From IMG/VR virus record IMGVR_UViG_3300042204_000022: a stretch of DNA of 64,000 nt; one strand, 5' to 3'. Shown here in pieces: positions 19,633 through 53,304 of this stretch. Position 1 is the first letter of the stretch. The number at the start of each line of letters is the position of its first letter. Below the pieces are notes generated by a model, which saw nothing but the letters and a program-made list of their open reading frames with translations, ran no database searches and was not told where the DNA came from. This DNA is from a virus. Taxonomy: Duplodnaviria; Heunggongvirae; Uroviricota; Caudoviricetes. Made by a program: the position numbers and the translations under genes.

Positions 19633-19875
19633 CTAGGCCGGGCTGTCCGGAGTCTCAGGCTCTTCGACTTTATCGGGGTGGCTTGCAAGAATCTTGTCGA
19701 GTTCTTCTTGGTCCATTTTTGTCCCCGAAACGACAAAGCCATCTTGGGAGGTAACGAAGTAGGTGCCGTCCTCAAGCTTATAGATTAAGCCTGTCATAAA
19801 CATACGCTTAGACAGCTCTTCGTCGAATAGTGTCTCAACTACCTTAAGCATCTGTGGTAGCCTCTTCTGGTTCAT
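19633..19875 (-). CDS. hypothetical protein
   Basis: ORF. Confidence 0.4.
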   Translation of the reverse strand: MNQKRLPQMLKVVETLFDEELSKRMFMTGLIYKLEDGTYFVTSQDGFVVSGTKMDQEELDKILASHPDKVEEPETPDSPA

Positions 19876-20236
19876 TTAAGAATCCATTATCGTCAAGACC
19901 ACGCTCTTCGATTGCGGCAAGGTAATCCTTTAGCTGTTGTGCTTTGTTCTCGTAGACTGTAATACGTGACTGAACTTCAGCTTTCTCGATGTCTTCGTAC
20001 TTGAACTCTTTAAGTGCTGTCTCAAGAGCAGCCTTCAGTTCATTAAACGAGTTGAACCTGAATGGGATCTCCTGCACGTGACGAGATGGAGAGGTGATAA
20101 GTGCAGAGTACTTAACCTTGCCCGGTTCGATACTAGAGGTTGACACCTGAACCGTATAATCAAGGGTTGAATCCTTGAATACGTTGCGAATAATTTTCTT
20201 GATGATTTTTTCTGCTGCTAGTATGTCTTTTTCCAT
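19844..20236 (-). CDS. hypothetical protein
   Basis: ORF. Confidence 0.45.
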   Translation of the reverse strand: MEKDILAAEKIIKKIIRNVFKDSTLDYTVQVSTSSIEPGKVKYSALITSPSRHVQEIPFRFNSFNELKAALETALKEFKYEDIEKAEVQSRITVYENKAQQLKDYLAAIEERGLDDNGFLNEPEEATTDA

Positions 20237-20571: not shown

Positions 20572-21627
20572 TTAATCTTTTTTCTTACGCTTGTCCAGCA
20601 CAATATCTGTTCTTTCGTTAGAAAACTTCAGACGGTGGCATATTCCTGTGTTAATTTCACGAGCGATTTTCTTTTGTAGGTCGTACCCGATGTAACCGTA
20701 CTCGTCCCACTTACGAGACGCTGGCATTGACACATGCTCTAACCACTTCTTCCACCTAACATCTACACTGTCTTCTGGTGAGAAGATAGGATTAGCGTGT
20801 AGTTGCTCCATATCAAAGGTGTAGTGACGCTTCGACCACTCGTTGCCAGCAACTTTGTTCTGGTTAATCATAAACGAAAGCTCAGGGATCATAAACTTCA
20901 GAACTCCGAACTCCTCTAGTAAGGCGATACCAGTGTTGTGGTACTCGCCCATGAGAAGTTTGTCAATTTCCTGCACCCAACGCTCCTTTGAAACGTCAAG
21001 AATGCGATCTGCGAGCTGACGAGACTTACCAGTGAAATTAGGGTCAATATTGAAACCGTAGCGTGCGGCAAAGCGGGCAGCACGAAGAATACGAAGTGGG
21101 TCTTCTTGAATGCGGTCTTTAGGCATACCGACAGTCTTAATCTGCTTTGCGTAGATGTCGAGCTTACCGCCATAAGGGTCATAGATAGAACCGTCAGAGC
21201 GTAGAACCATTGCGTTCATCGTGAAGTCACGACGAGCAAGGTCTTCGTCAAGAGAAGTTACAAATGCTACCTCTGGCTTACGAGACTTAGAGGTGTAAAC
21301 TTCTGAGCGGAAGGTGGTTACTTCAACGTATTCGTACTTAAATACAGCATCAGAGAACCCGTATCCGTCATCGCCTATCATCTCAAGCTTGTCTTGAATC
21401 GGCACCTTAAAACCGATAGTACCAAACTTCTCACCGATAGTGTAGACACGACGACCCGCAGCCTTGACCTTCTCTGTCATTTCATCGGGCAGTAGAGAGG
21501 TGGTGAAATCGTAGTCTTTAGGTGTGTTACCCATTACGAGGTCACGAACAGAACCACCGACAAGATAAACATCTTCGGTGCCTAAAATTTTCTGTACTTC
21601 TTTTTGTATGTATAGTGCTTTTTCCAT
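20572..21627 (-). CDS. tRNA nucleotidyltransferase (CCA-adding enzyme / poly(A) polymerase family)
   Basis: GGSVRDL...DYDF nucleotidyltransferase head motif, RRDFTMNA, LRILRAARFAA; start set at MEKALYIQ. Confidence 0.75.
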   Translation of the reverse strand: MEKALYIQKEVQKILGTEDVYLVGGSVRDLVMGNTPKDYDFTTSLLPDEMTEKVKAAGRRVYTIGEKFGTIGFKVPIQDKLEMIGDDGYGFSDAVFKYEYVEVTTFRSEVYTSKSRKPEVAFVTSLDEDLARRDFTMNAMVLRSDGSIYDPYGGKLDIYAKQIKTVGMPKDRIQEDPLRILRAARFAARYGFNIDPNFTGKSRQLADRILDVSKERWVQEIDKLLMGEYHNTGIALLEEFGVLKFMIPELSFMINQNKVAGNEWSKRHYTFDMEQLHANPIFSPEDSVDVRWKKWLEHVSMPASRKWDEYGYIGYDLQKKIAREINTGICHRLKFSNERTDIVLDKRKKKD

Positions 21628-21896
21628 TATTCTATTTCCTCTAGGGTTGAAATGTCGATTTCGTGCATCTCCATCTCGATACGCATTCCCCAATCAGCCC
21701 AACCGTTTTCAATGATGTAATGTTTTGTGTGTTCTTTTACGAATTGATCGTGTTCTTCTTGTGTGCTTATCGGGTAGGGCTGAGCAGATAAATGCTTTAC
21801 ATAATACCCTTTGACTTCACGAGTTCTATAGCCAACAAATGGGTCGGGCGTTTCTGGGGGCAGTGTTGTAGCCTTATACCTTTTTGGCTCAGTCAT
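21627..21896 (-). CDS. hypothetical protein
   Basis: ORF. Confidence 0.4.
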   Translation of the reverse strand: MTEPKRYKATTLPPETPDPFVGYRTREVKGYYVKHLSAQPYPISTQEEHDQFVKEHTKHYIIENGWADWGMRIEMEMHEIDISTLEEIE

Positions 21897-22093
21897 TAGT
21901 CTTTATTCCCGCGAATTGCACCACCGAACAGCCACAGAAGGGCGTTGATGGCTAATGCTACATGAAATACGAGTGGCGTTGCACCGTAGTATTCAAGAAT
22001 AATGTTAGTCAAGAGCATAAGAACGAATGCACTTGCGAAAAAAATACCTACGAATAGGACTGCGATCATCCCTGTTGCTAAAAATGCTTTCAC
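21896..22093 (-). CDS. small membrane protein
   Basis: 2 TM helices. Confidence 0.4.
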   Translation of the reverse strand: MKAFLATGMIAVLFVGIFFASAFVLMLLTNIILEYYGATPLVFHVALAINALLWLFGGAIRGNKD

Positions 22094-22347
22094 TTCTTTG
22101 TCTCCTTTTCGACATATTCTTTGCCGTTTACTTTAATGGTTGTCTTACCGTTTTTAGTGACGATTTCAATCTTATTACCACCCTGTGAGATGGTTGATCT
22201 GCTCGTACCGAATGAAGATTTCTGAACTACCGAGCTATTGCCGTTAATGACAATATTATTCTCGCCGACAGAGTTAATCTCATTTTCGATTTGATCTGGC
22301 AGAGAATCCATCAAATCACTAAATTTATCCCAAAATCCCTTTTTCAT
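22090..22347 (-). CDS. hypothetical protein
   Basis: ORF. Confidence 0.4.
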   Translation of the reverse strand: MKKGFWDKFSDLMDSLPDQIENEINSVGENNIVINGNSSVVQKSSFGTSRSTISQGGNKIEIVTKNGKTTIKVNGKEYVEKETKK

Positions 22348-22465
22348 AGCTCGTCCTTTCTGTAATTTACGATTGCGTATAATTGGTCGTAGGTGAATGG
22401 GAATTCTGTGAGAAAAGCCTCGCTCACAACTGTTTTTTGCATATAGCTTGTAACAAAGATACTCA

Positions 22466-23395
22466 TTATTTTACCCTCTTATAACGACCTTTTATTTTTG
22501 GCTCACCATAATCTCCAGTATCTTCACGAGCCGATAGTAATTGGTCAATCAACTTAAAGTCCTCATCGCTAACGGTAAGCTGTTCTGATTTAGCTCTTGC
22601 TGGCGGCTTGCCCGTGCTGAACCAACTCCATTTATTCTCTACGTGTCTCTTAAGAAATGGTGTTAGACTAAGTTCGCCATCATAAGTTTCAGAATATGAC
22701 ATCCACGCAAGAACCTTGACAGGCTTTTCTCTTTTGACGAGAGTTCTGCGAGACCTGTTATACCAATACCTGTTGTCCTGTTCCTCTTTTTCTTCGTAGT
22801 AATCCCATACTTCACCAATACAGATGCTTTTCTGGGTAATCGTAGCATAAACACCACCGATCTCCCACTTAGTAGTCTTTTTAGCACTCTTCATTGCCTC
22901 TTTGTGGTTCTTGTCTTTGACAGCCTCTGCGTAAGCGTCCATACCCTCGTGTATGAATCCCGGTTGACCGCCCTTGCGAACAAACATAAGACCCTGTTTG
23001 ACTTTACCCTTCTCCATATCGCTATTGCGAATTAGGTCGGCGAGAATAGCGTCATTAACACCTACGATGAACTCCACCCCATCTTTCTCTACCTTGCACT
23101 TCCAGAACGATAGACGACCGCCTTGAGATGAACCGCCCGCTGAGTCAAGAATTGTAACGGTGAACCCGCTATTATCGAAAATATGTACATTTGGTGCGTG
23201 CACGATCGTCTCTTTGTCGTTATCGTACCTATTGTCGTAGCGAGTAGCCCAATCTTCTGCCGTTTTGCGAGCTTTTTCGTCATCGGCTTCGAAAATATAG
23301 CCGTCAAACGTCTCTTTACCGCGCCAAGACTGCTGTTTCTGAGAGCAGACAGCAACGCCTACTTTGTCCATCATTTTCCAGTAGTTATACGCCAT
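22466..23395 (-). CDS. hypothetical protein (member of RNA-repair cassette)
   Basis: 309-aa ORF, no recognised motif. Confidence 0.5.
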   Translation of the reverse strand: MAYNYWKMMDKVGVAVCSQKQQSWRGKETFDGYIFEADDEKARKTAEDWATRYDNRYDNDKETIVHAPNVHIFDNSGFTVTILDSAGGSSQGGRLSFWKCKVEKDGVEFIVGVNDAILADLIRNSDMEKGKVKQGLMFVRKGGQPGFIHEGMDAYAEAVKDKNHKEAMKSAKKTTKWEIGGVYATITQKSICIGEVWDYYEEKEEQDNRYWYNRSRRTLVKREKPVKVLAWMSYSETYDGELSLTPFLKRHVENKWSWFSTGKPPARAKSEQLTVSDEDFKLIDQLLSAREDTGDYGEPKIKGRYKRVK

Positions 23396-24074
23396 GTTTC
23401 ATCCTTATCTCGTACAAGAGATTGTTAAGTCTTTCATAGTCTGGCTCATCTGGCAGCACAGATACAATATTCTCAAACTCTGCGTCTTGACGCATAAACT
23501 CATCAACCACTTCATCTGCTGTCTTTTCGCCCATAGCAAAGAGGTATTCACGCTGTTCTGGGGTGACCTTAACCTGAAGCGTGCCAGTTTCAAGTAGCTG
23601 ACGTGCTTGCATGAGAAGTCTGAAGCAGTGACGTGTGTGTTTTGCGAAACGATTCTTAAGAGAACTGTCGTAGCCGTCGAGACCCTGCTCGGTGCGGTTG
23701 TTCAGACGCTTAGCTTGCGAGAATGCGTACCCACGATAGGCGTTCATCACCGCTTTCGTAGATAGAAATGCGTCGCGGTTATCAATCAACATCTGACCGA
23801 TAGGTGAAAGCTCTGTGTATTCATTTAAGTAAAGAAGCTCGGTGACAGTTGGGTTGCCCGAAACGACAAGTTTCATAAATTTACCCACTTCGTGATATAC
23901 CCAATCTGGGTCTACGTGGTCTTTTGTCGTGTGCTGTGGGTCGAAGCCCATCTCCAACACCTTGCGGGTAGGAAGTAAGTAAACACCCTTAATATCAACA
24001 TCCGAATTTTCAGTGTTAAGTCCGTATGCGGTGCTACCCGTAATACCTTCTAGAATAATATTATCTGGCTTCAT
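23385..24074 (-). CDS. Pol-beta-superfamily nucleotidyltransferase
   Basis: GSTAYGLNTENSDVDIKGV (GS-x9-SDxD nucleotidyltransferase fold motif). Confidence 0.55.
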   Translation of the reverse strand: MKPDNIILEGITGSTAYGLNTENSDVDIKGVYLLPTRKVLEMGFDPQHTTKDHVDPDWVYHEVGKFMKLVVSGNPTVTELLYLNEYTELSPIGQMLIDNRDAFLSTKAVMNAYRGYAFSQAKRLNNRTEQGLDGYDSSLKNRFAKHTRHCFRLLMQARQLLETGTLQVKVTPEQREYLFAMGEKTADEVVDEFMRQDAEFENIVSVLPDEPDYERLNNLLYEIRMKHGV

Positions 24075-24432
24075 CTCTCTTCGCTTTCATTAGAGTTATT
24101 CCATCTTTTGCATCTTGCAGTCTTTTTTCGGTGTATTCGCTTTTGTAAGAGCCTTTTTCATAGTCTGCGATGTCGCCATCAACCATATCTGACATCATGT
24201 CTATAACACTAGTCGCTTTTAGCTCTTCTTCTTTGACTTCGATCTCGACAATTTCAGCATCGAGATAAACCTCAGCACGTGACGGCCTATAGCTATAGCG
24301 GTCCATAAACTGACGTAGGTGATTTTTAAGGTGACCGATGTTAGCCCAAGTCTTACCGCCCTTAGTAAAGTCAGGGTCCATTCCACCAGAGGAGTAACGT
24401 CCATCTTTGTCTCTAATCCTATAGACTTTCAC
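24061..24432 (-). CDS. hypothetical protein
   Basis: ORF. Confidence 0.4.
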   Translation of the reverse strand: MKVYRIRDKDGRYSSGGMDPDFTKGGKTWANIGHLKNHLRQFMDRYSYRPSRAEVYLDAEIVEIEVKEEELKATSVIDMMSDMVDGDIADYEKGSYKSEYTEKRLQDAKDGITLMKAKRDEAR

Positions 24433-24901
24433 GTGCAGCCTTTTTCAGACCCCTAAATACGAATCCGCTTTCTACTTTTAGATTTCCGGGAATAATAATC
24501 TTCTCTTTTGTACCTACGTCGATACCAAGTGCTGTGTCTACGTGCTTTACAGTTACGTGACCATTGTAAAGTGGGAATGCTTCGAATACCTGACGCAGCT
24601 CCTCGTTGTCACCTACGAATGCTGCAAGAGCGGTGATAGAGTATGCGTCTACTTCGTTTACGCCTTCATCGATGTAATAATCTGAGTCAATCTCAGCACC
24701 GTCGAGGTAAATTGCGAGGTTCTGAAGTTGCATGGCGTTCTTCGCTTCAAGAACAATTACTGTGCGACGAAAATCGCTTAAGAAGTCTTCTTTAGAGTTG
24801 CCATTAAGTAACATTGCTGAGTGAACAGCTTGAGCAGCTGCTTTGCCGGGAGACATCTTTAGCTCGCCGTTCAAAACTACGTACATTATTGGATTTTTCA
24901 T
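24419..24901 (-). CDS. peptidyl-tRNA hydrolase, PTH2 family
   Basis: YVVLNGELKMSPGKAAAQAVHSA resembles PTH2 N-terminal signature. Confidence 0.6.
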   Translation of the reverse strand: MKNPIMYVVLNGELKMSPGKAAAQAVHSAMLLNGNSKEDFLSDFRRTVIVLEAKNAMQLQNLAIYLDGAEIDSDYYIDEGVNEVDAYSITALAAFVGDNEELRQVFEAFPLYNGHVTVKHVDTALGIDVGTKEKIIIPGNLKVESGFVFRGLKKAARESL

Positions 24902-25230
24902 TTTTGTGCCTCCATAAGATAGTCGTACAGCTCGCCAGCGTCATGAATCGCCAACCTTTTGGTGTTCGGGTCATCTGCATCGCCGAGATAAACAGCATAC
25001 GTCTCAGCATTCTTGCCACACTCAGGGCCGTCCCAGAACCACCAGCTGATGATTTCATCGTGGTCGAGCGTCTCAATTACCTTCTCTACGAGAGGAGTAC
25101 TGAACACAAGACTATGATTAAATCCGTCTTTTACAACATTATCCAGAGACTTACCAATTTCCCTGTCACGTTCTTCTTGTGCGATTAGTGCGTTGATGAT
25201 TTGTACGAACTGCTCTTTTGATATATTCAT
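24898..25230 (-). CDS. hypothetical protein
   Basis: ORF. Confidence 0.4.
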   Translation of the reverse strand: MNISKEQFVQIINALIAQEERDREIGKSLDNVVKDGFNHSLVFSTPLVEKVIETLDHDEIISWWFWDGPECGKNAETYAVYLGDADDPNTKRLAIHDAGELYDYLMEAQK

Positions 25231-25265
25231 GTACTAAATATAACAAAGCATAAGCAGAATGTCAA

Positions 25266-26180
25266 CTAAAATTCGTAACGAACATCACCCCTCTGTAGGA
25301 CGTTGATTCCATAGTAGTCTCTCAGGTGATTTGCTACACGAGGACGGTCATCAATCCAGAATAGGATGTTATACTTCCCGCGAATATGCTCTTCGATGAA
25401 CTCACCTTTAACGATAGCGTCGTTGCGGTTGTCGTTCTCTGCACGCATCACGAGCTTGTCGTATTCGATGTCGTTTTTCTCTAACCATGCCTCAGTTTCT
25501 GGGCGACATACTGCGTCACGTCCTGAGAAGATAAATAGCTCTACGTCATCTATGCCACGTTTGCCGTGTATAAACTGCACCCCGTCTAATAAGGCTGCAA
25601 CACCGAGGTTAATTTCGTCATTACCAACTTTATGCCATTCATAAGGCGAACGGTTTTTTGGACCGTTTGTGAGACTGCCGTCTAGGTCGCTTACTACCAA
25701 CCATTTGAGGCTTGGGTCGTAGCTAAGAAATGTTGGCAGCGTCTTAACGCTTTCATGAAACATTCTGCGGATAACTTGTTCGCCAACACTGTCTTCACGG
25801 TTCTTATCACGTTCAATCACCTCTGCGAGTGGTACATCTAAGAAACTTTCGATGACCACCTCAGCACCAAATTCTTTTGCGATATTTGTGATTCTGGTGA
25901 CGTGTTTTTGCACAAGGTTTGTGTCTGAAGAGACTACGCTTTTACCTTGTGAAAGTGCTTGCTGAATAAGACGGTCACGTTCTTTGATAACGATTGACTC
26001 ATCGCCACGTTTGTGACTGTACGCACCGTCCTTAAACAGGCGACCATCTTTGCGGATTTCATCTTTTTCTACACGTACACGATTCTCTTTATCTTCTGAT
26101 ACCCATTGACGGGCGAACGTAGTTTTACCAGAAGCCGGTAGACCCCTAGTAATTACTACGGTTAATTTACTATTCTTCAT
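25266..26180 (-). CDS. polynucleotide 5'-kinase / 3'-phosphatase (Pnkp, T4 PseT-like)
   Basis: N-terminal P-loop GLPASGKTTFA; C-terminal HAD phosphatase DLDGSL...FWIDDRP. Confidence 0.75.
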   Translation of the reverse strand: MKNSKLTVVITRGLPASGKTTFARQWVSEDKENRVRVEKDEIRKDGRLFKDGAYSHKRGDESIVIKERDRLIQQALSQGKSVVSSDTNLVQKHVTRITNIAKEFGAEVVIESFLDVPLAEVIERDKNREDSVGEQVIRRMFHESVKTLPTFLSYDPSLKWLVVSDLDGSLTNGPKNRSPYEWHKVGNDEINLGVAALLDGVQFIHGKRGIDDVELFIFSGRDAVCRPETEAWLEKNDIEYDKLVMRAENDNRNDAIVKGEFIEEHIRGKYNILFWIDDRPRVANHLRDYYGINVLQRGDVRYEF

Positions 26181-26412
26181 TTTGATTTTCTCCACGAAGG
26201 GCTACGAGTGTGGTGTCTCTTTTTCTAAGTATAGTATCTACGGTAACTCCGTAAGCGCCTTCAAGTACCTCTGATGCGAGGTTCATTCTTTTTTCTATTT
26301 CTGTAGCTTTTTCGCCAAGCTTTAGTATATGATCTACGATTCCTTCTGGACCCATAGATTCGAGTAGTTCAACTTCTGACAATCCGGGCAATGATTCTTG
26401 GCGTTCTATCAT
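26170..26412 (-). CDS. hypothetical protein
   Basis: ORF. Confidence 0.35.
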   Translation of the reverse strand: MIERQESLPGLSEVELLESMGPEGIVDHILKLGEKATEIEKRMNLASEVLEGAYGVTVDTILRKRDTTLVALRGENQNEE

Positions 26413-27680
26413 TCTACTTTACCTTCCTCTTCCATATCTAGTGCTTCTTCGTCCATCATCTTGCTTTCGTGAGCAAAAAATAGAGGACTCTTCAGCTTAG
26501 CAATATATGGGGCTAGACCTTCGATGCGAATACACACGCCTTCGTCACAAGGGCTTTCCTTGTCTAGCGGTACAGCATTAGCGTAACCACCATGTAGTGT
26601 ATCATGATAATTCGTATCTAACCACTCTTCAGGGTTAAAGTCTTGGTGCTTACCACGCCATAGTTCTGGCACGTGCTTCAAGCCACGATCGCGAGTCCAC
26701 TCTTTGAGCTGATCCCAGCTAAGGTCAGTCATAATACCCTGACCGTTGATCTGTGCGACACGGTAAACGTAGAAGTCGTTTGTCATGTGAGGCACACGGT
26801 AGGTATAGTTCTTCTGAATTGGTACACCATCTGGTGTCCATCCGATTAGCTCGCCATAAACGACGAAGTTTTCAGGAACGAGGTCGTCGTACTTCTTCGC
26901 TGCTTCAGTCCAGATGTCGTGTTCATAGAAGTGCATCTGACGTTCGTTATTCGCATCCTTAATAACACGGTTTGAACCGTACACGTGGTCGTATTCAGTT
27001 TTCTGCACACGTACACCAAGCTTAGATGCGACCTTCTCAACGACAGATAGTTTGCGTGCTACGGGAATGTTAGAGAAACGAAGCAGGGTACCGTGAAGCT
27101 TCTGAGTCACGATGATTTCTGTGTATGGCTTGAACGTATCGAGAACACGGTAGTACTGTGATGTGTCATAGTGACGAGGGAAGAGTTTTTCGTCTACACG
27201 AGTGAACACCTTGTGCTTGTTATTTTCGTGAGCTGGTGTTGATTTGCGCTTGACTTCATACTTCTTACAGATTTCGAAGCCATTCAATTCTTCAAATACG
27301 TCACCGACCTTAAGTTCGCTCAGGTCTACCTTAGTGTAGGCGAGAGATGAAAGTGGCATGAACAACGCATCAGAGCGGTTGCCGCGAAGCTTAATAGCCT
27401 TAACACGACGGTTGTCTTCGATGAATCCAGTCTTGTCTTTGTCTTCGTTAAACTCGTGATGACGAAACAGGTTGTTCTTAGCAGTGTACTCATCGCTAAG
27501 CTGCGTTCCCGCTACGAATACGACACCGACAGTGCCAATCTCAGTTTCCTTAGAAACTACCGCCTGCATACCCAGCAGTGGTGCACCAAGAAGATTGTCA
27601 CTGTTTTCAAGTGGGTTGAGAGCACTAATCTTTACGATCTGTGCTGCATAGTTTATGTTTTCAGGTTCTTTTAGTTTCAC
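26409..27680 (-). CDS. ATP-dependent RNA ligase (Rnl2-like motifs; N-terminal extension + C-terminal nucleotidyltransferase domain, DraRnl/Rnl5-like architecture)
   Basis: motif I TQKLHGT (KxHGT), motif III-like VYGELIGW, motif IV EGVCIRIEG, C-terminal K-rich; NTase domain located in C-terminal half. Confidence 0.65.
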   Translation of the reverse strand: MKLKEPENINYAAQIVKISALNPLENSDNLLGAPLLGMQAVVSKETEIGTVGVVFVAGTQLSDEYTAKNNLFRHHEFNEDKDKTGFIEDNRRVKAIKLRGNRSDALFMPLSSLAYTKVDLSELKVGDVFEELNGFEICKKYEVKRKSTPAHENNKHKVFTRVDEKLFPRHYDTSQYYRVLDTFKPYTEIIVTQKLHGTLLRFSNIPVARKLSVVEKVASKLGVRVQKTEYDHVYGSNRVIKDANNERQMHFYEHDIWTEAAKKYDDLVPENFVVYGELIGWTPDGVPIQKNYTYRVPHMTNDFYVYRVAQINGQGIMTDLSWDQLKEWTRDRGLKHVPELWRGKHQDFNPEEWLDTNYHDTLHGGYANAVPLDKESPCDEGVCIRIEGLAPYIAKLKSPLFFAHESKMMDEEALDMEEEGKVE

Positions 27681-28038
27681 TTTCTTTTTCCTTTTTGAAT
27701 AAATCGTTTAGCTCTGGTAAATTCTCCTCATAGAACATTAGTGCCATTGCGTTCCATGCTACTGCTGCTATGTGGTCTTCAGTTCTGTCGCCCTCTCTCC
27801 ATTGAATGAGGTGACGAAATAATGATGCGTAGGCACGAGAAAACGGTTGACCTTTCTTCCAGTTGTCGTCGCCGTATTTCTCTGCACCACGTGCATACAA
27901 GTCTGCGAGTCTGCGAAGCCCCTCTGTTGGGATTAGATCAAAGCGAGGCTTGCCATCTTGAACGTCTCTCACCATGCCAGTTGAAAAGCTCTGCCTCTTG
28001 CCAGAATCCTTTGTAATAAATTCTTTCTTACCGCTCAT
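27661..28038 (-). CDS. MazG-like / dNTP diphosphohydrolase N-terminal-domain-like protein
   Basis: RFDLIPTEGLRRLADLYARGAEKYGDDNWKKG; start moved to ATG 28038 (leaderless). Confidence 0.35.
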   Translation of the reverse strand: MSGKKEFITKDSGKRQSFSTGMVRDVQDGKPRFDLIPTEGLRRLADLYARGAEKYGDDNWKKGQPFSRAYASLFRHLIQWREGDRTEDHIAAVAWNAMALMFYEENLPELNDLFKKEKESETKRT

Positions 28039-28075
28039 GCTTTTATTATATCTGAGCAAAGTGCTTATGTCAACT
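28039..28075 (-). promoter_or_regulatory. sigma70-like promoter, leaderless start (TTGACA-N17-TATAAT-N6-ATG)
   Basis: minus-strand TTGACATAAGCACTTTGCTCAGATATAATAAAAGC-ATG. Confidence 0.6.
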
Positions 28076-39356: not shown

Positions 39357-40006
39357 ATATTCAGTACGGCTAGATGTAAAGCTTTGCGACCATTAAGTTC
39401 GCTGAGATGATACATATCTACACACTAGCCGTATTCGCGAGAGATAACGCTCTTTTTCTTTTTGTAGACTCTGTATCTATCTACTCTCATTATACATCAA
39501 GCTTATGCTTTGTAAAGTTCAAAATGGTGGAGCTGCGGGGTACTGCCCCCCGGTCCTCATAAAATCCAACTAGACTTCTACAGGTTTAGTTTCATTTATC
39601 CGTGAAACGACGGGATGTTTGCGGGGATCTCCTGCCAGGGCACTTTTTACGTTAAGTCCGAAACGTAAAGTTTGAGTTCGCTTTTGGCGAAACTCTTGTT
39701 CATTCTTCTCAATAGTTTGTGATACAGCCTGATCTCTTTGCGTCCAGAGCGTTTATTCTCCTTCTTCCCAGAGGGGCAATATCTACAGTAAGACAGACTA
39801 GCTGCCATAACGCGTCTCTTAAACCAGTGCGTAAGCTGGCTGAAGGCTAAACATTGCCTTCACTTTTGCGAATAGTTTTGCAATTAAAATAGTTTTAAGT
39901 CTTACGACTACCTGCGATCTAATTTTCAATATACAAGTCGAATCTTGGTCAACCCCATATAACTATTATATACCATAAGCATAAATAAAAAAAGTCTAAA
40001 AAAGTG

Positions 40007-45627: not shown

Positions 45628-45702
45628 TGGCTCAGAGACTAGGGCTCGAACCTAGATAACAACCTTCAAAGGGTTGCGTCCTACCAGTTAGACGATCTCT
45701 GA
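45628..45702 (-). tRNA. tRNA-Gln(TTG)
   Basis: manual cloverleaf: acceptor TCAGAGA/TCTCTGA, T-loop GGTTCGAGCCC, anticodon loop CTTTGAA, CCA encoded. Confidence 0.7.
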
Positions 45703-45705
45703 TTA

Positions 45706-45793
45706 TGGCGGAAGACGTAGGACACGAACCCAACGCCCTTGCGAACGCACATATCTTAGCAGGATAGTCTAGCACCTCGCTAGTTCATCTTCC
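45706..45793 (-). tRNA. tRNA-Ser(GCT), type II
   Basis: 88 nt, long variable arm, anticodon loop CTGCTAA; T-loop with T58. Confidence 0.55.
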
Positions 45794-45797
45794 ATCT

Positions 45798-45871
45798 TGG
45801 CTGCCTCGCGTGGATTCGAACCACAATTAACTGATTCAGAGTCAGTCGTCCTACCATTAGACGACAAGGCA
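45798..45871 (-). tRNA. tRNA-Gln(CTG)
   Basis: anticodon loop ACTCTGA, T-loop GGTTCGAATCC. Confidence 0.65.
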
Positions 45872-45878
45872 ATAATTA

Positions 45879-45953
45879 TGGGGTGTCAGACGAGTCCCGA
45901 CATCGCAACTCCAACGTCACAGGTTGGTATGATTCCTTTTCACTACCGACACC
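45879..45953 (-). tRNA. tRNA-His(GTG)-like with G-1/C73 and aberrant T arm
   Basis: G-1 + GTGTCGG/CTGACAC acceptor, anticodon loop CTGTGAC; T arm non-canonical. Confidence 0.35.
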
Positions 45954-45961
45954 ATATTGTT

Positions 45962-46050
45962 TGGCGGAAGGCTGAAGTGTCGATCTCCAAGAGGTTGCCC
46001 CCTCCAACTGTTTTCAAGACAGTGCCCAGAGCCGTCTGGGATAACCTTCC
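45962..46050 (-). tRNA. tRNA-Ser(TGA)-like, type II, non-canonical T-loop ATCGACA
   Basis: acceptor GGAAGGT/GCCTTCC, anticodon stem ACTGT/ACAGT loop CTTGAAA. Confidence 0.4.
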
Positions 46051-46056
46051 TTATTT

Positions 46057-46139
46057 GGTCGCCCTACTAGGATTCGAACCTAGAGTCAATTAAGACAGCG
46101 GGTTTAAGCCGCCTGCGTGAACCTTTTCGCCATAGAGCG
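46057..46139 (-). tRNA. tRNA-Leu(TAA), type II
   Basis: anticodon loop CTTAAAC, T-loop GGTTCGAATCC. Confidence 0.6.
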
Positions 46140-46145
46140 ATATTC

Positions 46146-46231
46146 TGGTGCCGAAGGAGAGACTCGAACTCTCACGCCCTCACGGGCACTGGTTTCTAAA
46201 ACCAGCGTGTCTACCATTCCACCACTTCGGC
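46146..46231 (-). tRNA. tRNA-Leu(TAG), type II
   Basis: anticodon loop TTTAGAA, variable arm GCCCGTGAGGGCG. Confidence 0.6.
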
Positions 46232-46244
46232 ATAAATTGTTAAT

Positions 46245-46330
46245 TGGTACGTCTAGCTAGATTCGAACTAGCACACCCTTTCGGGCAACAGGGTTTGAGC
46301 CTGCCGTGTCTACCGTTCCACCATAGACGC
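46245..46330 (-). tRNA. tRNA-Leu(CAA), type II
   Basis: anticodon loop CTCAAAC. Confidence 0.6.
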
Positions 46331-46335
46331 TTATC

Positions 46336-46410
46336 TGGAGCACCCAACCGGAATCGAACCGATGTATTCCGCTTTGCAGGCGGTCGCCTAGGCCACTCGG
46401 CCATAGGTGC
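46336..46410 (-). tRNA. tRNA-Cys(GCA)
   Basis: anticodon loop CTGCAAA, T-loop GGTTCGATTCC. Confidence 0.65.
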
Positions 46411-46417
46411 ATAATTT

Positions 46418-46493
46418 TGGTGGCACCGGTTGGACTTGAACCAACGACCCCTCCCTTTTCAGGGGAGTGCTCTACCAGCTGAGCTACAGTGCC
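46418..46493 (-). tRNA. tRNA-Phe(GAA)
   Basis: anticodon loop CTGAAAA, D arm GCTCAGCTGGTAGAGC. Confidence 0.7.
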
Positions 46494-46496
46494 ACA

Positions 46497-46571
46497 TGGT
46501 CAGAGTTCTGGGAGTCGAACCCAGCATATCCCGCGTCCAAGGCGGGCATCACACCCCGCAATCTAACTCTG
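46497..46571 (-). tRNA. tRNA-Pro(TGG)
   Basis: anticodon stem CCCGC/GCGGG loop CTTGGAC. Confidence 0.55.
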
Positions 46572-46577
46572 ATAATA

Positions 46578-46654
46578 TGGTCAGGATAGGAAGTGCTGCC
46601 CTCCCCGCCTCTGAGTCCCAAACCCAGCGCTCTGCTAACATGAGCTATATCCTG
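46578..46654 (-). tRNA. tRNA-Pro(TGG)-like with non-canonical T-loop GGCAGCA
   Basis: good acceptor/D/anticodon arms (loop TTTGGGA) but T-loop lacks TTC. Confidence 0.4.
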
Positions 46655-46657
46655 ATA

Positions 46658-46731
46658 TGGCTCCTCCGACTGGACTCGAACCAGTAATAACTCCTTAACA
46701 GGGAGACGTGTTACCATTACACTACAGAGGA
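46658..46731 (-). tRNA. tRNA-Asn(GTT)
   Basis: anticodon loop CTGTTAA. Confidence 0.65.
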
Positions 46732-46745
46732 ATAAATTGTTAATT

Positions 46746-46821
46746 TGGCGGAGAAGACGGGATTCGAACCCGCGATCTCTCCCGTGACAGGGGAGTGTGT
46801 TAACCGCTACACCACATCTCC
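46746..46821 (-). tRNA. tRNA-Asp(GTC)
   Basis: anticodon loop CTGTCAC, T-loop GGTTCGAATCC. Confidence 0.65.
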
Positions 46822-46826
46822 AAATT

Positions 46827-46900
46827 TGGCAGGCCCCAAAAGATTTGAACTCTTACTAAGGGGTTTGGAATCCCTTGTGCTGCCATTACACTAGAGGCCT
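46827..46900 (-). tRNA. tRNA-Trp(CCA)
   Basis: anticodon loop TTCCAAA, T-loop AGTTCAAATCT. Confidence 0.6.
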
Positions 46901-47404
46901 AAAAGTGCTTAGTTTTGTTGATTTGTACTAAGCTTCACCGATTGGCGCTACCTGTCGCCATCAAATCGGGAACAAAATCCGGCAAGACCTTTCATCGGTA
47001 GCCTTGCATGAGCCTGACACTATGCTGTTTTCGCTTATTCAACACATAGCCGCGAACGTACTCGCAGAGGGCAGCGAAGCCCTATCGTACAACCAATATT
47101 CGTGGTTCAGTCTTTCAGCTAGACACGACGCATAGCTAGCTATAGCACTATACGCCTCTCAATTGGCTATCACCACTTATAGTATATGACCACGCGCCTC
47201 CCACAGTCGTGTTGGTTTCCCTCATACTCCTCTCTTTCGAGTGCTACCCTCATCACCGTGTTTTCGAGCTTTCGCATGTTCACAGCATGTTAGGGTAACT
47301 TTTAGCCTTGTCCGTCATTCTAATTGTTAAAGTAAAAGCACCAACCTTTGTGGGATTGGTGCCTTATATGTTTGTTTTACTTTGCTCTAACTATAGAGAA
47401 AACA

Positions 47405-47478
47405 TTAGACACCAATACCAAACTGATCTGGGCAATTCCAGAGCAATGAGGGCTGTAGATGACTAAATAAGTTACTCA
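47405..47478 (-). CDS. tiny leaderless ORF (24 aa) downstream of tRNA-array promoter
   Basis: ATG 7 nt after TATAAT; MSNLFSHLQPSLLWNCPDQFGIGV. Confidence 0.25.
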
Positions 47479-47479
47479 T

Positions 47480-47514
47480 ATCTCTATTATAGCACACATA
47501 AATATAAACGCAAG
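47480..47514 (-). promoter_or_regulatory. sigma70-like promoter with extended -10 (TTGCGT-N16-TGTGCTATAAT) feeding minus-strand tRNA array 1
   Basis: near-identical to promoter at 56720-56755. Confidence 0.55.
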
Positions 47515-47635
47515 CACTTTTTATAAAAATAAACAAAAACACCCCACTCGAATGGGGTGACAACCACTGCGTTATACCTGATACGGCGGTCAAGGCAACC
47601 GTCCTTCCCGTAACGAGGTGTGTGATTCTTCGTTA

Positions 47636-47671
47636 CTTCTTATTATAGGCGGTCAAAATGCTTATGTCAAT
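47636..47671 (-). promoter_or_regulatory. sigma70-like promoter (TTGACATAAGC-N-TATAAT)
   Basis: minus-strand TTGACATAAGCATTTTGACCGCCTATAAT. Confidence 0.5.
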
Positions 47672-47814
47672 AGTCTGGGGGAGGGTTTTCGGCGAAAAAC
47701 ATTTGTTACCCTCTAATTTGTGTGGTCTTACATCAGAATTGATGAACGAATTCTACCCATCAAATCAACTACCTACCGATACGCTTATGTTATCAAATTA
47801 AATCTATATGTCAA

Positions 47815-47901
47815 TGGTACCAGCTGGAGGATTCGAACCTTCCGAAGCCCGAAGGCGAGTGATTTACAGTCACTATGCTTTGACCGCTTGCATAAACTGG
47901 C
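47815..47901 (-). tRNA. tRNA-Tyr(GTA), long variable arm
   Basis: anticodon loop CTGTAAA, T-loop GGTTCGAATCC, CCA encoded. Confidence 0.6.
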
Positions 47902-47904
47902 TTA

Positions 47905-47979
47905 TGGTGACCCTAGCGGGATTCGAACCCGCGATCCGGGAGTGAAAGTCCCGTGACTTAACCGCTTGTCCATAGGGCC
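47905..47979 (-). tRNA. tRNA-Glu(TTC)
   Basis: anticodon loop CTTTCAC, T-loop GGGTTCGAATCCCGC. Confidence 0.65.
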
Positions 47980-48079
47980 ATGAAATTAAAAAACCGCCTC
48001 TCGGCGATCTACTTTGAGCATATACAAAGAGTGCCGAGTTATTCGGTTACACGTTCCTCGTATGAATATGTCTTGCTCA

Positions 48080-48116
48080 TACCCTTATTATAGCACATGA
48101 AAAAAATAAGCACAAT
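48080..48116 (-). promoter_or_regulatory. candidate promoter with extended -10 TGTGCTATAAT for tRNA-Glu/Tyr
   Basis: weak -35 TTGTGC. Confidence 0.35.
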
Positions 48117-48121
48117 AAGTA

Positions 48122-48157
48122 TTGACTTTATTTCCGCTTACGCCTATAATGAAAAGC
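48122..48157 (+). promoter_or_regulatory. sigma70-like promoter (TTGACT-N17-TATAAT)
   Basis: upstream of 48192. Confidence 0.6.
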
Positions 48158-48191
48158 ATAAGCAGTCCTAAACTTCAAGAAAGGAAGAAAC

Positions 48192-48407
48192 ATGAAAGAA
48201 ATTAAAGAGCTTATCGATGTCACCCTAGCTTGGGGTAGTGATATAGCGGATTTGTGGACAGGTACACAATTCGAAAAACAAATAGACTTGCAGCAAGCAC
48301 AAATAATAAAAGCAGCAGAAAAAGAAGACTGGAAGAAAGCCGAAAATCTCACCACAGACTTAGCACAATTTCTCTTCTACGCTGAAGAGGAGTACGCACG
48401 TGGCTAA
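48192..48407 (+). CDS. hypothetical protein
   Basis: ORF. Confidence 0.4.
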   Translation: MKEIKELIDVTLAWGSDIADLWTGTQFEKQIDLQQAQIIKAAEKEDWKKAENLTTDLAQFLFYAEEEYARG

Positions 48408-49473: not shown

Positions 49474-49491
49474 GCTTGATAGTATAAAACC

Positions 49492-49995
49492 ATGAGCAAT
49501 TACATTTTCGTAGACGTAGAAGCACGCGGGTCATCACCAGTAAACGGTACGATGACAGAATTTGGTGCAGTACATGGAACAAGCAAAGAAACATATCACG
49601 GTGTACTATTTGAGGGTTCACCAGACCCAGAAAACCCGGCTATTCCCGTAGTAGGTAAGCGTCTTCTATCAGACAAAGAGGTCGCTGAAGACTTTCTTAA
49701 CTGGTTGAGGCATGTTTGTAAGAATGACCGTCCCGTATTCGTGAGCGACAACGTAGCTTACGACTGGATGTGGATTGCTGGTATGTTTGATCGTGCAGGT
49801 ATCGATAACCCATTTGGTCATTCTGGTCGTCGCATTTCTGACTTTTGGGCTGGTCTTCAACATAATTTCGGCGAAACACAGTCGTGGAAGCGTTTTCGTA
49901 AGACTAAGCACGACCATAACCCTGTAAACGACGCTATGGGCAACGTAGAAGCATTCGAAGAGATTAAGAAGATAGCAAAGGAGTTAAGAAAATGA
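49492..49995 (+). CDS. DEDDh 3'-5' exonuclease (DnaQ-like)
   Basis: FVDVEARG (DxE), SDNVAYDWMW (D), HNPVNDAMG (H..D). Confidence 0.6.
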   Translation: MSNYIFVDVEARGSSPVNGTMTEFGAVHGTSKETYHGVLFEGSPDPENPAIPVVGKRLLSDKEVAEDFLNWLRHVCKNDRPVFVSDNVAYDWMWIAGMFDRAGIDNPFGHSGRRISDFWAGLQHNFGETQSWKRFRKTKHDHNPVNDAMGNVEAFEEIKKIAKELRK

Positions 49996-50095
49996 GACGC
50001 TTACTATGTTTCATAGGATTCCATTCGTATAGAGTGATTGGCATCATTACCACGCCGCTATTCAGCGAAGAAGGCCGTGCCACAGTGTGTAAAGT

Positions 50096-50682: not shown

Positions 50683-50772
50683 GTACCAATACATCGGGTA
50701 CGTGATGGTCACAAGGTGGCTAGGAGGTGTCGCAGGGGGAATACCCTATGAACACCTAGAAGAAGCAAAAAA

Positions 50773-51626: not shown

Positions 51627-51692
51627 AGTGCTTGTGCTTATCGATTTTTTCAGCTATAATTAGATAAGAAAGAAATAATATAAGGAGAATCA

Positions 51693-52379: not shown

Positions 52380-52507
52380 GAGAATCGTATGGCAGCTGGT
52401 CTATTGATCGTAGCTCTAGTTCTGGCGGTATGTACAGTGATCTTACTGGTTACCGTCAGGGCTGACATAAAAGAACAAAATAATAAAACTAAGAAGGGCA
52501 AGAAGTA

Positions 52508-53302: not shown

Positions 53303-53304
53303 AC

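What the first reader, a model, noticed from the sequence alone, without database searches (positions are those of the whole stretch)
20572..27680. Phage RNA-repair cassette: Rnl2-type ligase, Pnkp, PTH2, Pol-beta nucleotidyltransferase and CCA-adding enzyme
- Six co-directional genes combine four RNA end-healing and end-sealing enzymes: a ligase with KxHGT/EGxxxK motifs, a T4 PseT-like kinase/HAD phosphatase, a CCA-adding tRNA nucleotidyltransferase and a GS-x9-SDxD Pol-beta nucleotidyltransferase.
- They sit with a PTH2-family peptidyl-tRNA hydrolase, which is unusual in phages, and a 309-aa unknown protein.
- Together with ~30 tRNA genes this looks like an elaborate counter-defence against host tRNA-cleaving nucleases (PrrC/RloC/colicin-like).
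- That is more elaborate than the classical T4 pnk+rnl pair.
- The PTH2 + Pol-beta nucleotidyltransferase + unknown-protein combination may define a new repair or counter-defence module.
Basis: partly seen in the sequence, partly recalled or inferred. Interest (0 to 1): 0.75.

Follow-up and report, generated by a model that had tools for sequence, protein, structure and literature searches.

The report
Phage tRNA-repair and ribosome-rescue gene cassette
An uncultured ~100-kb phage carries a tight row of genes for mending broken tRNAs (end-healing kinase/phosphatase, RNA ligase, two tRNA-end nucleotide adders, a peptidyl-tRNA hydrolase); this toolkit is already described for large phages, and the only open part is one conserved phage-only protein of unknown function.

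Summary
On the minus strand, 28073..20572 is a gap-free, co-directional gene array behind two sigma-70 promoters. Five of the six large genes pass profile or structure tests:
- RNA ligase (PF09414)
- T4-type Pnkp
- PTH2
- RlaP nucleotidyltransferase (PF10127)
- class II CCA-adding enzyme

- The ligase is Rnl5-like, with an N-terminal OB domain plus a nucleotidyltransferase domain. Its best structural match is Naegleria NgrRnl. It is not Rnl2 in the strict sense.
- The "Pol-beta NTase" is the already named and assayed RlaP family.
- PTH2 is documented in jumbo phages.
- The window has 25 tRNAs plus a tmRNA, not about 30 tRNAs.

The same six genes are syntenic in 8 of 10 diverged metagenomic relatives; RlaP, the unknown and CCA are together in all 10. 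Among 80 other viral loci with this ligase type, ligase+Pnkp is common (63) and the full set is clade-specific.

Verdict: a new member of a known kind.

The parts
28045..28073 (-). Promoter P1: perfect sigma-70 consensus TTGACA-N17-TATAAT, directly upstream of the MazZ-like gene and the ligase
   Evidence: Four perfect matches in the window against 0.03 expected from shuffles.
27661..28038 (-). MazZ-like dATP/dGTP diphosphohydrolase N-domain protein (125 aa). It overlaps the ligase start by 20 nt. It is the first gene of the transcription unit and probably belongs to the upstream DNA-modification block.
   Evidence: PF18909 1.5e-22. Gene call on L007/L008.
26409..27680 (-). ATP-dependent RNA ligase, Rnl5-like: N-terminal OB domain (about residues 1-140) plus nucleotidyltransferase domain (K194 nucleophile; motifs III, IIIa, IV, V). 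No C-terminal domain.
   Evidence: PF09414 and phrog_968. AF2 model pLDDT 81. Foldseek top match is NgrRnl, E 3e-13. TIGR02306 weak hit. Motifs are invariant in alignment A4.
26170..26412 (-). Small ORF (80 aa) between the ligase and Pnkp. No family match. A small ORF also occupies this position in L004 and in XacN1, without detectable similarity.
25266..26195 (-). Bifunctional polynucleotide 5'-kinase / 3'-phosphatase (T4 PseT-type Pnkp): P-loop GLPASGKT, HAD motif DLDGS
   Evidence: AAA_33 plus HAD_PNKP. phrog_505 4e-72. T4 Pnk 1ltq 1e-18 and Pnkp1 4xrp 2e-23 over both domains.
25237..25265 (-). Promoter P2: TTGACA-N17-TATATT with an extended TG, in the 35-nt gap between Pnkp and the next gene
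   Evidence: 11 of 12 consensus positions.
24898..25230 (-). Small ORF (110 aa), no family match, seen only in near-identical contigs
24419..24901 (-). PTH2-family peptidyl-tRNA hydrolase (core residues 6-112) with a variable extension of about 48 aa at the C-terminus
   Evidence: PF01981 48 bits. Aligns to archaeal Pth2 structures 1rzw, 1wn2 and 1rlk with GK-AAQ-H and D-G-EV conserved. The extension is absent in L004, L010, L013, L014 and L016.
24061..24432 (-). Small ORF (123 aa) overlapping both neighbours. It is conserved (about 52% identity) just upstream of RlaP in L003 and L015. No family match.
23385..24074 (-). RlaP-family Pol-beta nucleotidyltransferase (GS-x10-DVD)
   Evidence: PF10127 82 bits. 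phrog_388 1e-43. 85-88% identical in L003/L004.
22466..23395 (-). 309-aa protein of a phage-restricted family of unknown function. It overlaps the RlaP gene by 11 nt. Signature motifs: SAGGSSQGG(K/R)LSFWxC, KKTSKW, PPAR.
21627..22466 (-). Four small overlapping ORFs (40, 85, 65 and 89 aa). The 89-aa ORF is conserved in L003 and L013.
20572..21627 (-). Class II tRNA nucleotidyltransferase (CCA-adding type), 351 aa from ATG 21627
   Evidence: PolyA_pol head plus RNA-binding domain. NCBIfam CCA models score 197 and 192 bits against 132 for PcnB. Motifs A-D present.
19844..20236 (-). 130-aa ORF found downstream of the CCA gene in most clade members (41-54% identity). No family match.
39525..39956 (-). 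Phage-encoded tmRNA. It lies outside the reported interval but belongs to the same translation-rescue theme.
   Evidence: Rfam RF00023, 72 bits against cutoff 47, full-length model. Tag frame ends ...PAYALV*.
45628..56564 (-). Two tRNA arrays with 25 genes in total. All 23 ARAGORN-called genes encode their own 3' CCA.

Best explanation
This is a phage-encoded tRNA repair and translation-rescue cassette of the kind catalogued for large phages. It is transcribed from host-type sigma-70 promoters.

Inferred pathway:
1. A host or competitor RNase cuts tRNA, leaving 2',3'-cyclic-phosphate or 3'-phosphate and 5'-OH ends.
2. Pnkp heals the ends. Its HAD phosphatase yields a 3'-OH and its P-loop kinase yields a 5'-phosphate.
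3. If nucleotides were lost, RlaP adds one or two NMPs to the 3'-OH.
4. The Rnl5-like ligase, whose N-terminal OB domain resembles tRNA-binding OB folds, seals the nick through a lysyl-AMP intermediate at K194.
5. The CCA-adding enzyme rebuilds damaged acceptor ends.
6. PTH2 releases peptidyl- or N-blocked aminoacyl-tRNA that falls off stalled ribosomes.
7. The tmRNA and 25 phage tRNAs elsewhere in the window back this up.

What is shown: domain identities, catalytic motifs, operon-like packing and conserved synteny. What is inferred: the enzyme activities (from family membership), tRNA as the substrate, and the counter-defence purpose. The 309-aa protein is provisionally an accessory factor of the RlaP/CCA step, but this is weakly supported.
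For: Family assignments:
- All five assignments pass curated Pfam cutoffs.
- Pnkp matches solved T4 Pnk over both domains.
- The ligase model matches NgrRnl full-length at E 3e-13. Its N-terminal OB also hits the tRNA-binding proteins 3bu2 and Trbp111 at E 4e-3 to 7e-2.
- PTH2 aligns to archaeal Pth2 with GK..AAQ..H and D.G..EV conserved.

Gene packing and promoters:
- Genes overlap or abut.
- Two consensus promoters sit in the only sensible positions.

Synteny:
- The order ligase-Pnkp-PTH2-RlaP-unknown-CCA recurs in L003, L004, L010 and L013-L016, at 44-88% protein identity.
- RlaP, the unknown and CCA are together in 10 of 10 clade loci.
- Among 80 IMG/VR loci with this ligase type, Pnkp lies within 10 kb in 63 and RlaP in 21.

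Other support:
- All 23 ARAGORN-called phage tRNA genes already encode CCA. The CCA enzyme is therefore not needed to make them and fits a repair role.
- Literature: PMC7824862 section 3.4.9 describes the same ensemble. PMC12776372 shows that RlaP adds 1-2 NMP to the 3'-OH of damaged RNA and is needed to restore aminoacylation of over-damaged tRNA.
Against: - No host and no host nuclease are known, and no activity was measured.
- Rnl5 enzymes characterised so far (DraRnl, NgrRnl) are duplex nick sealers with no proven tRNA substrate. DraRnl has a DNA-repair phenotype (PMC5397189).
- The first transcription unit starts with a MazZ-like gene and follows a DNA-hypermodification block.
- A near-identical natural contig (L009) carries a 10-bp frameshifting deletion in PTH2, so that gene is dispensable at least sometimes.
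- The Thr of the Pth2 'TEV' motif is Asn here.
- The specificity of the class II enzyme (CCA-, CC-, A- or poly(A)-adding) cannot be read from the sequence.
Confidence: 0.7

Rival explanations
1. Housekeeping support for the phage's own translation, not counter-defence. The CCA enzyme, PTH2, tmRNA and tRNAs simply raise translational capacity and maintain the 25 phage tRNAs during a heavy late-protein burst. The ligase and Pnkp are general RNA quality control.
For: The cassette co-occurs with a near-complete tRNA set and a tmRNA. PTH2 is lost in one natural variant. No defence-related gene or target is identifiable.
Against: All ARAGORN-called tRNA genes encode CCA and none has an intron. Maturation therefore needs neither CCA addition nor ligation. 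A kinase/phosphatase paired with a ligase (63 of 80 loci) is the signature of repairing endonucleolytic breaks.
Confidence: 0.15
2. The ligase and Pnkp pair acts on DNA or on RNA-DNA junctions. Examples would be sealing nicks with ribonucleotide 3' ends in the phage's hypermodified genome, or repairing restriction damage. It would not act on tRNA.
For: DraRnl, the founding Rnl5 member, sensitises Deinococcus to ionising radiation when deleted and tolerates DNA in the 5'-PO4 and template strands (PMC5397189). T4-type Pnkp also works on DNA ends (established knowledge). The ligase shares promoter P1 with a MazZ-like dNTP pyrophosphohydrolase. It follows glycosyltransferase, TAGT and methyltransferase genes.
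Against: The second unit (PTH2, RlaP, CCA) is strictly tRNA and RNA oriented and stays linked to the ligase and Pnkp in 8 of 10 clade loci. The ligase's OB domain resembles tRNA-binding OB folds.
Confidence: 0.1
3. The adjacency is inherited gene order in an accessory region, not a functional module. In particular the 309-aa protein has nothing to do with RNA repair. It could be, for example, an early host-takeover or virion-associated protein.
For: Distant family members sit among nucleotide-metabolism genes such as TK, NrdD, ThyX and NT5C. Others sit next to peptidoglycan hydrolases: Phage_lysozyme2 in L017 and L023, M23 in XacN1, an amidase in L021. Only 5 of 80 ligase loci contain the protein, and all five are in one clade.
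Against: In the clade it stays beside RlaP and CCA through rearrangements, including inverted order in L010, L014 and L016. In unrelated phages it is immediately next to RlaP (L024), Thg1 (L021) or the Rnl5-like ligase (XacN1 ORF119).
Confidence: 0.05

Closest known systems
Jumbo-phage RNA-repair / ribosome-rescue complement (Burroughs & Aravind 2016; Iyer et al. 2021, PMC7824862 section 3.4.9)
   Same: The parts list is identical: many tRNAs, an ATP-dependent RNA ligase, a PNK-HAD kinase/phosphatase, RlaP, a CCA-adding enzyme and PTH2. A tmRNA occurs with these genes in jumbo phages such as AP-J-162 (PMC11242549).
   Different: Here the parts sit as one contiguous, promoter-delimited block in an uncultured phage of about 90-110 kb. 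There is no nucleotide match in GenBank phages. The terminase is only about 30% identical to the nearest known, which are Bacteroidota phages. The block also includes an uncharacterised 309-aa protein.
T4 Pnkp (PseT) + Rnl1 tRNA-Lys repair pathway against PrrC
   Same: The logic is the same: heal the ends with a bifunctional kinase/phosphatase, then seal with an ATP-dependent ligase. The Pnkp is a true homologue of T4 Pnk.
   Different: The ligase is not Rnl1; T4 Rnl1 2c5u is only a marginal structural match at E 4e-3. Nucleotide-restoring enzymes (RlaP, CCA) and PTH2 are added. The target nuclease is unknown.
Rnl5 nick-sealing RNA ligases (DraRnl, NgrRnl)
   Same: Both have an N-terminal OB domain, a C-terminal adenylyltransferase domain and no extra C-terminal domain. 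NgrRnl is the best structural match and the DraRnl model is the only NCBIfam hit.
   Different: This protein is 423 aa, against about 340. A disordered linker of about 25 residues (142-165) joins the domains. Sequence identity is about 15%, and the score is far below the TIGR02306 equivalog cutoff (34 against 151 bits). It forms its own phage clade (phrog_968) with XacN1 ORF121 and the mycobacteriophage cluster E ligases.
Mycobacteriophage 244 / cluster E and Xanthomonas phage XacN1 ligase loci
   Same: The ligase is orthologous (47-50% identity). In phage 244 it lies next to a pseT-type Pnkp. In XacN1 it lies two genes from a divergent member of the 309-aa family.
   Different: Those loci have no PTH2, RlaP or CCA genes beside the ligase.
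Bacterial RtcB-RlaP-RtcA operons (PfRlaP, PaRlaP; PMC12776372)
   Same: An RlaP nucleotidyltransferase is embedded in an RNA ligase operon.
   Different: The ligase chemistry differs: 5'-phosphate/3'-OH ATP-dependent here, against 3'-phosphate GTP-dependent RtcB. The phage RlaP is short (229 aa) and was too divergent to hit any PDB chain by sequence.

Membership tests
Rnl5 RNA ligase (DraRnl/NgrRnl type) | N-terminal OB domain fused to a C-terminal adenylyltransferase domain, with no further C-terminal domain | tested here: met
   The AF2 model shows a beta-rich domain at 1-140 plus a nucleotidyltransferase domain at 170-411. Thirteen NgrRnl entries align over 413-423 columns at E 3e-13 to 2e-11. 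PHA02142 OB hit at residues 13-110.
Rnl5 RNA ligase (DraRnl/NgrRnl type) | Covalent nucleotidyltransferase motifs I (KxxG), III, IIIa, IV and V | tested here: met
   K194-LHGT, YGEL at 275, FYVYR at 303, EGVCIR at 380, KLKS at 395. All are invariant in 30 homologues.
Rnl5 RNA ligase (DraRnl/NgrRnl type) | Sequence-level equivalence to DraRnl (TIGR02306 trusted cutoff) | tested here: not met
   34.4 bits against a cutoff of 151. This is a distinct phage clade, so I call it 'Rnl5-like' rather than an orthologue.
Rnl5 RNA ligase (DraRnl/NgrRnl type) | Seals 3'-OH RNA / 5'-PO4 nicks, Mn2+-dependent | not testable with these tools
   Needs an enzyme assay.
Rnl2 RNA ligase (T4 Rnl2 / REL1 type) | Nucleotidyltransferase domain followed by the Rnl2-specific C-terminal domain, with no N-terminal OB | tested here: not met
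   The protein ends about 26 residues after motif V. T4 Rnl2 and REL1 align only over about 275-300 columns of the nucleotidyltransferase domain, at E 1e-7. By sequence, T4 Rnl2 scores E 0.15.
T4-type Pnkp (PseT) | N-terminal P-loop 5'-kinase plus C-terminal HAD (DxDxT-class) 3'-phosphatase in one chain | tested here: met
   AAA_33 at residues 13-145 and HAD_PNKP at 167-301. GLPASGKT and DLDGS present. T4 Pnk 1ltq matches residues 13-292 at E 1e-18.
Pth2 peptidyl-tRNA hydrolase | Pth2 profile above the curated cutoff and alignment to solved Pth2 proteins | tested here: met
   PF01981 48.2 bits against 23. Matches 1rzw, 1wn2 and 1rlk.
Pth2 peptidyl-tRNA hydrolase | Catalytic Lys (GK-AAQ) and Asp (D-x-G) residues. 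Their importance in S. solfataricus Pth2 is recalled from memory. | tested here: met
   K20 in GKAAAQAVH and D78 in IDEG align with the archaeal residues. The neighbouring Thr of 'TEV' is Asn here.
RlaP (PF10127) nucleotidyltransferase | PF10127 profile above cutoff, with the Pol-beta GS...DxD catalytic motif | tested here: met
   81.9 bits against 23. GSTAYGLNTENSDVD at residue 13.
RlaP (PF10127) nucleotidyltransferase | Genomic association with an RNA ligase | tested here: met
   The ligase lies 2.3 kb upstream in the window. RlaP lies within 10 kb of this ligase type in 21 of 80 viral loci.
Class II CCA-adding tRNA nucleotidyltransferase | Head domain motifs A-D (GGxVRD, DxD, RRD, DxxGGxxD, EDxxR) plus the RNA-binding neck | tested here: met
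   PF01743 and PF12627. Motifs present.
Class II CCA-adding tRNA nucleotidyltransferase | CCA specificity, as opposed to CC-, A- or poly(A)-adding | tested here: inconclusive
   CCA models score highest (197 and 192 bits against PcnB 132), but all are below their equivalog cutoffs.
309-aa protein: any known fold or family | Significant match to Pfam, NCBIfam, PDB sequence or PDB structure | tested here: not met

The most novel reading that the evidence does not exclude
The 309-aa protein represents a large, phage-restricted and structurally unassigned family: 445 clusters at 50% identity, spanning PHROGs 12487, 2475 and 6266. Under this reading it is a previously unrecognised accessory factor of tRNA-end repair, for example a tRNA-binding or presenting partner for template-independent nucleotidyltransferases (RlaP, CCA, Thg1). 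Its recurrent adjacency to those enzymes in unrelated phages would then be functional.
Probability: 0.25. Interest if true: 0.55.

Novelty: new member of a known kind. Interest (0 to 1): 0.35.

Why it matters
The cassette is a compact, promoter-delimited and unusually complete example of the phage RNA-repair and ribosome-rescue toolkit. It occurs in a phage lineage that has no cultured or GenBank relative and is well below jumbo size. That makes it a convenient source of enzymes for testing the proposed pathway of healing, nucleotide restoration and sealing.

It links an Rnl5-type ligase, whose physiological substrates are still uncharted, to a clearly tRNA-oriented gene set. This gives a testable hint about what Rnl5 enzymes do in phages. 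It also flags a widespread phage protein family of unknown fold as a candidate new partner of tRNA-end nucleotidyltransferases.

It does not reveal a new kind of system.

Tried and rejected
- Megablast of the 7.1-kb region against GenBank phages found no match.
- The ligase and RlaP found no PDB match by single-sequence search.
- Foldseek against afdb50 was unavailable.
- tblastn of a central family member (P0269) against GenBank phages found no match.
- The genome-contig scan returned only 6 loci, all MAG contigs that look like phage. There is therefore no cellular operon context to borrow function from.
- Burroughs & Aravind 2016 (PMC5062991) is not held. It is cited only through PMC7824862.
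- I first assumed XacN1 ORF119 was the Pnkp. I rejected this because it has no Pnkp similarity. It is instead a divergent member of the 309-aa family.
- I considered that the DUF2828/DUF7788 protein (40059-41501) is a Ro60/TROVE-like RNA-repair platform. There was no PDB sequence match and no informative literature, so this is left untested.
- A Bacteroidota host was suggested by the terminase relatives. The canonical TTGACA/TATAAT promoters argue against it. The host is unresolved.

Full report
**1. What is there**

All ORFs of the reported interval lie on the minus strand and abut or overlap. In transcription order they are:

| Coordinates | Size | Assignment |
|---|---|---|
| 28038..27661 | 125 aa | MazZ-like dNTP diphosphohydrolase N-domain protein |
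| 27680..26409 | 423 aa | RNA ligase |
| 26412..26170 | 80 aa | small ORF |
| 26195..25266 | 309 aa | Pnkp |
| 25230..24898 | 110 aa | small ORF |
| 24901..24419 | 160 aa | PTH2 |
| 24432..24061 | 123 aa | small ORF |
| 24074..23385 | 229 aa | Pol-beta nucleotidyltransferase (RlaP) |
| 23395..22466 | 309 aa | unknown protein |
| 22466..21627 | 40, 85, 65, 89 aa | four small ORFs |
| 21627..20572 | 351 aa | class II tRNA nucleotidyltransferase |

Gene callers on near-identical public contigs (L007-L009) give the same layout. They start the last gene at ATG 21627 rather than at the TTG at 21693.

There are four perfect TTGACA-N17-TATAAT promoters in the window, against 0.03 expected by chance. 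One, at 28073..28045, sits directly in front of the MazZ-like gene and the ligase. A TG-extended match to 11 of 12 consensus positions, at 25265..25237, fills the only real intergenic gap, between Pnkp and the 110-aa ORF. The block therefore looks like two host-sigma-70 transcription units.

**2. Identity of the parts**

Pfam and PHROGs confirm five of the six assignments above curated cutoffs.

*Pnkp.* It matches solved T4 polynucleotide kinase over both domains (1ltq, E 1e-18) and bacterial Pnkp1 (4xrp, E 2e-23). It carries GLPASGKT and DLDGS.

*PTH2.* It aligns to three archaeal Pth2 structures with the GK-AAQ-H and D-x-G-x-EV signatures kept. The Thr of 'TEV' is Asn. A C-terminal extension of about 48 residues is present only in some relatives.

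*The nucleotidyltransferase.* It is RlaP (PF10127, 82 bits). This family was named for its linkage to RNA ligases. It has recently been shown to add one or two NMPs to the 3'-OH of damaged RNA (PMC12776372).

*The last gene.* It has the full class II head-domain motif set. It scores best against CCA-adding models (197 and 192 bits, against 132 for PcnB) but below their equivalog cutoffs. Its exact specificity is therefore not settled.

**3. The ligase is Rnl5-like, not Rnl2 in the strict sense**

- Sequence similarity to T4 Rnl2 is marginal (E 0.15).
- An AlphaFold model built on 30 homologues (pLDDT 81) shows an N-terminal beta-rich domain, a disordered linker (142-165) and a nucleotidyltransferase domain. 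The chain ends shortly after motif V.
- Foldseek against the PDB returns 13 entries of Naegleria gruberi RNA ligase, the Rnl5 prototype, aligned over the whole chain at E 3e-13 to 2e-11.
- REL1 and T4 Rnl2 follow at 1e-7 over the nucleotidyltransferase domain only. Rnl3 scores about 1e-3 and Rnl1 4e-3.
- The only NCBIfam hit is the DraRnl model, far below cutoff.
- The N-terminal domain alone also hits the tRNA-binding OB proteins 3bu2 and Trbp111 at E 4e-3 to 7e-2.
- Rnl5 enzymes are duplex nick sealers whose physiological substrates are uncharted (PMC5397189).
- The closest annotated relatives are XacN1 ORF121 (50% identity) and the mycobacteriophage cluster E ligases (47%), which sit beside pseT.

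**4. Conservation**

There is no nucleotide-level relative in GenBank phages. The terminase is only about 30% identical to Bacteroidota phage terminases.

Metagenomic relatives are abundant. In ten diverged loci (L003, L004, L010-L016 and the window), protein identity to the window's proteins ranges from 85-88% (ligase, RlaP) down to 44-49% (PTH2). RlaP, the unknown and CCA lie together in 10 of 10. Ligase, Pnkp and PTH2 lie within 6 kb upstream in 8 of 10. There are local rearrangements: the unknown lies before RlaP in L010, L014 and L016.

I also took 80 IMG/VR loci chosen only for carrying this ligase type. Home-made HMMs find the following within 10 kb:

| Partner | Loci out of 80 |
|---|---|
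| Pnkp | 63 |
| RlaP | 21 |
| PTH2 | 9 |
| CCA | 7 |
| 309-aa family | 5 (all from the same clade) |

The ligase and Pnkp are therefore the widespread core. The full set is a clade-specific elaboration.

**5. Wider context in the window**

- ARAGORN finds 23 tRNAs. Rfam adds two more and a full-length tmRNA at 39525..39956 (72 bits, cutoff 47). The tmRNA tag frame ends ...PAYALV.
- All 23 ARAGORN-called tRNA genes encode their own CCA. The nucleotidyltransferase is thus not needed for their synthesis, which favours a repair role.
- Upstream of the cassette lie glycosyltransferase, methyltransferase, metallophosphatase and TAGT genes, a DNA-hypermodification block.

**6. The 309-aa protein**

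*Family and fold.*
- It has 173 close metagenomic homologues.
- A profile search finds 445 clusters at 50% identity, 157 of them below 1e-30.
- Across the broad family the conserved features are W49, N75, the loop SAxxSSQGG(K/R)LSFWxC, G112, G130, G146, Y155, KKTSKW, G180 and P265-x-R267. There is no conserved acidic or His set typical of a metal-dependent enzyme.
- The AF2 model is confident (pLDDT 88), except for the invariant Gly/Ser loop.
- Foldseek against BFVD matches only uncharacterised proteins of large phages: Listeria P100 gp62, Bacillus W.Ph. gp153, Yersinia fHe-Yen9-04 (two paralogues) and Agrobacterium Atu_ph07.
- Only six loci exist in 185,579 species genomes, and all are MAG contigs. 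The family is effectively phage-restricted.

*Context of distant members is mixed.*

Neighbours related to RNA repair:
- RlaP immediately upstream in L024.
- Thg1 one small gene downstream in L021.
- An RlaP-like gene 9 kb away in L017/L018.
- RtcB 6 kb away in Bastillevirinae.
- XacN1 ORF119, two genes after the Rnl5-like ligase, is a divergent member (hhalign 86.7%, E 4e-6; shared phrog_2475).

Other neighbours:
- Thymidine kinase, NrdD, ThyX, NT5C and Sir2.
- Peptidoglycan hydrolases.

I therefore treat a role in tRNA-end repair as a hypothesis (about 25%), not a finding.

**7. Comparison with what is known**

Iyer et al. 2021 (PMC7824862, section 3.4.9), building on Burroughs & Aravind 2016, describe exactly this complement for jumbo phages: tRNAs, ATP-grasp RNA ligases, PNK-HAD, RlaP, CCA-adding enzyme and PTH2. 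They give the same mechanistic rationale. A tmRNA together with PTH, CCA and ligase is also reported in jumbo phage AP-J-162 (PMC11242549).

What is new here is modest:
- The set is contiguous and promoter-delimited.
- It sits in a non-jumbo, uncultured lineage. Contigs run up to 109 kb.
- The ligase is of the Rnl5 architecture.
- An uncharacterised conserved protein is embedded between RlaP and CCA.

**8. Verdict**

The best explanation (confidence about 0.7) is a tRNA repair and translation-rescue cassette working by end healing, optional nucleotide restoration, sealing, CCA repair and peptidyl-tRNA recycling. The rivals are housekeeping translation support, DNA or RNA-DNA nick repair by the ligase and Pnkp pair, and mere synteny. 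It is a new member of a known kind. Interest is 0.35.

Noticed in passing
window 39525-39956 (-): A full-length phage-encoded tmRNA (Rfam RF00023, 72 bits against cutoff 47) that ARAGORN missed. The acceptor end is GGGG...CUCCACCA and the tag frame ends ...PAYALV*. It lies about 100 nt from, and divergent to, the DUF2828/DUF7788 gene.
   Followed up: partly
window 40059-41501 (+): A 480-aa DUF2828 + DUF7788 (vWA-like) protein. The same gene follows the cassette in relatives L003 and L004. It may be a Ro/TROVE-like RNA-binding platform (recalled from memory). There was no PDB sequence match.
   Followed up: partly
L009:7440-7600 (JGI 3300042262 contig, otherwise about 100% identical to the window at 24600-24760): A 10-bp deletion (AGATTGACTC, between AGATT direct repeats) frameshifts the PTH2 gene just before its IDEG motif. 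This is a natural PTH2-null variant of the same phage.
   Followed up: yes
window 13104-13131 (-), 28045-28073 (-), 38507-38535 (+), 47642-47670 (-): Four perfect TTGACA-N16-17-TATAAT promoters (0.03 expected). P1 and P2 end only about 6 nt before the annotated ATGs, so the first genes may be translated from leaderless or near-leaderless mRNAs. The canonical consensus argues against a Bacteroidota host, despite the terminase relatives.
   Followed up: partly
window 28070-35133 (-): A DNA-hypermodification block directly upstream of the cassette. It holds GT2, GT4 and GT1-type glycosyltransferases, a Methyltransf_21 gene, a metallophosphatase, a TET-associated glycosyltransferase (TAGT, 34237-35133) and the MazZ-like dATP/dGTP diphosphohydrolase domain (27661-28038).
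   Followed up: no
window 55505-55567 (-) and 56406-56477 (-): Two tRNA-like genes found by Rfam (55 and 51 bits) but not by ARAGORN. They bring the total to 25. No Ser or His tRNA is in the ARAGORN list, and the identity of these two was not determined. A tRNA-Ile with anticodon UAU is also present (55727-55800).
   Followed up: no
L001:13511-14359 (Xanthomonas phage XacN1 ORF119): This 'hypothetical protein', two genes after the XacN1 Rnl5-like ligase, is a divergent member of the 309-aa family. It lacks the SSQGGKLSFW loop. Thg1 lies 5 kb upstream and an M23 peptidase lies immediately downstream.
   Followed up: partly
L010, L014, L016 versus L003, L004, L013, L015: Within the clade the ligase comes in two versions (about 83-85% and about 50% identity to the window's) while RlaP, Pnkp and CCA stay similar. 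This suggests that the ligase gene was exchanged between lineages.
   Followed up: no
window 18093-18410 (+), 18970-19473 (-), 17457-18086 (+): Several HNH-type endonuclease ORFs lie just downstream of the cassette. They are present in only some near-identical contigs (L008 has extra HNH genes that L007 lacks), so they look like mobile homing-endonuclease insertions.
   Followed up: no
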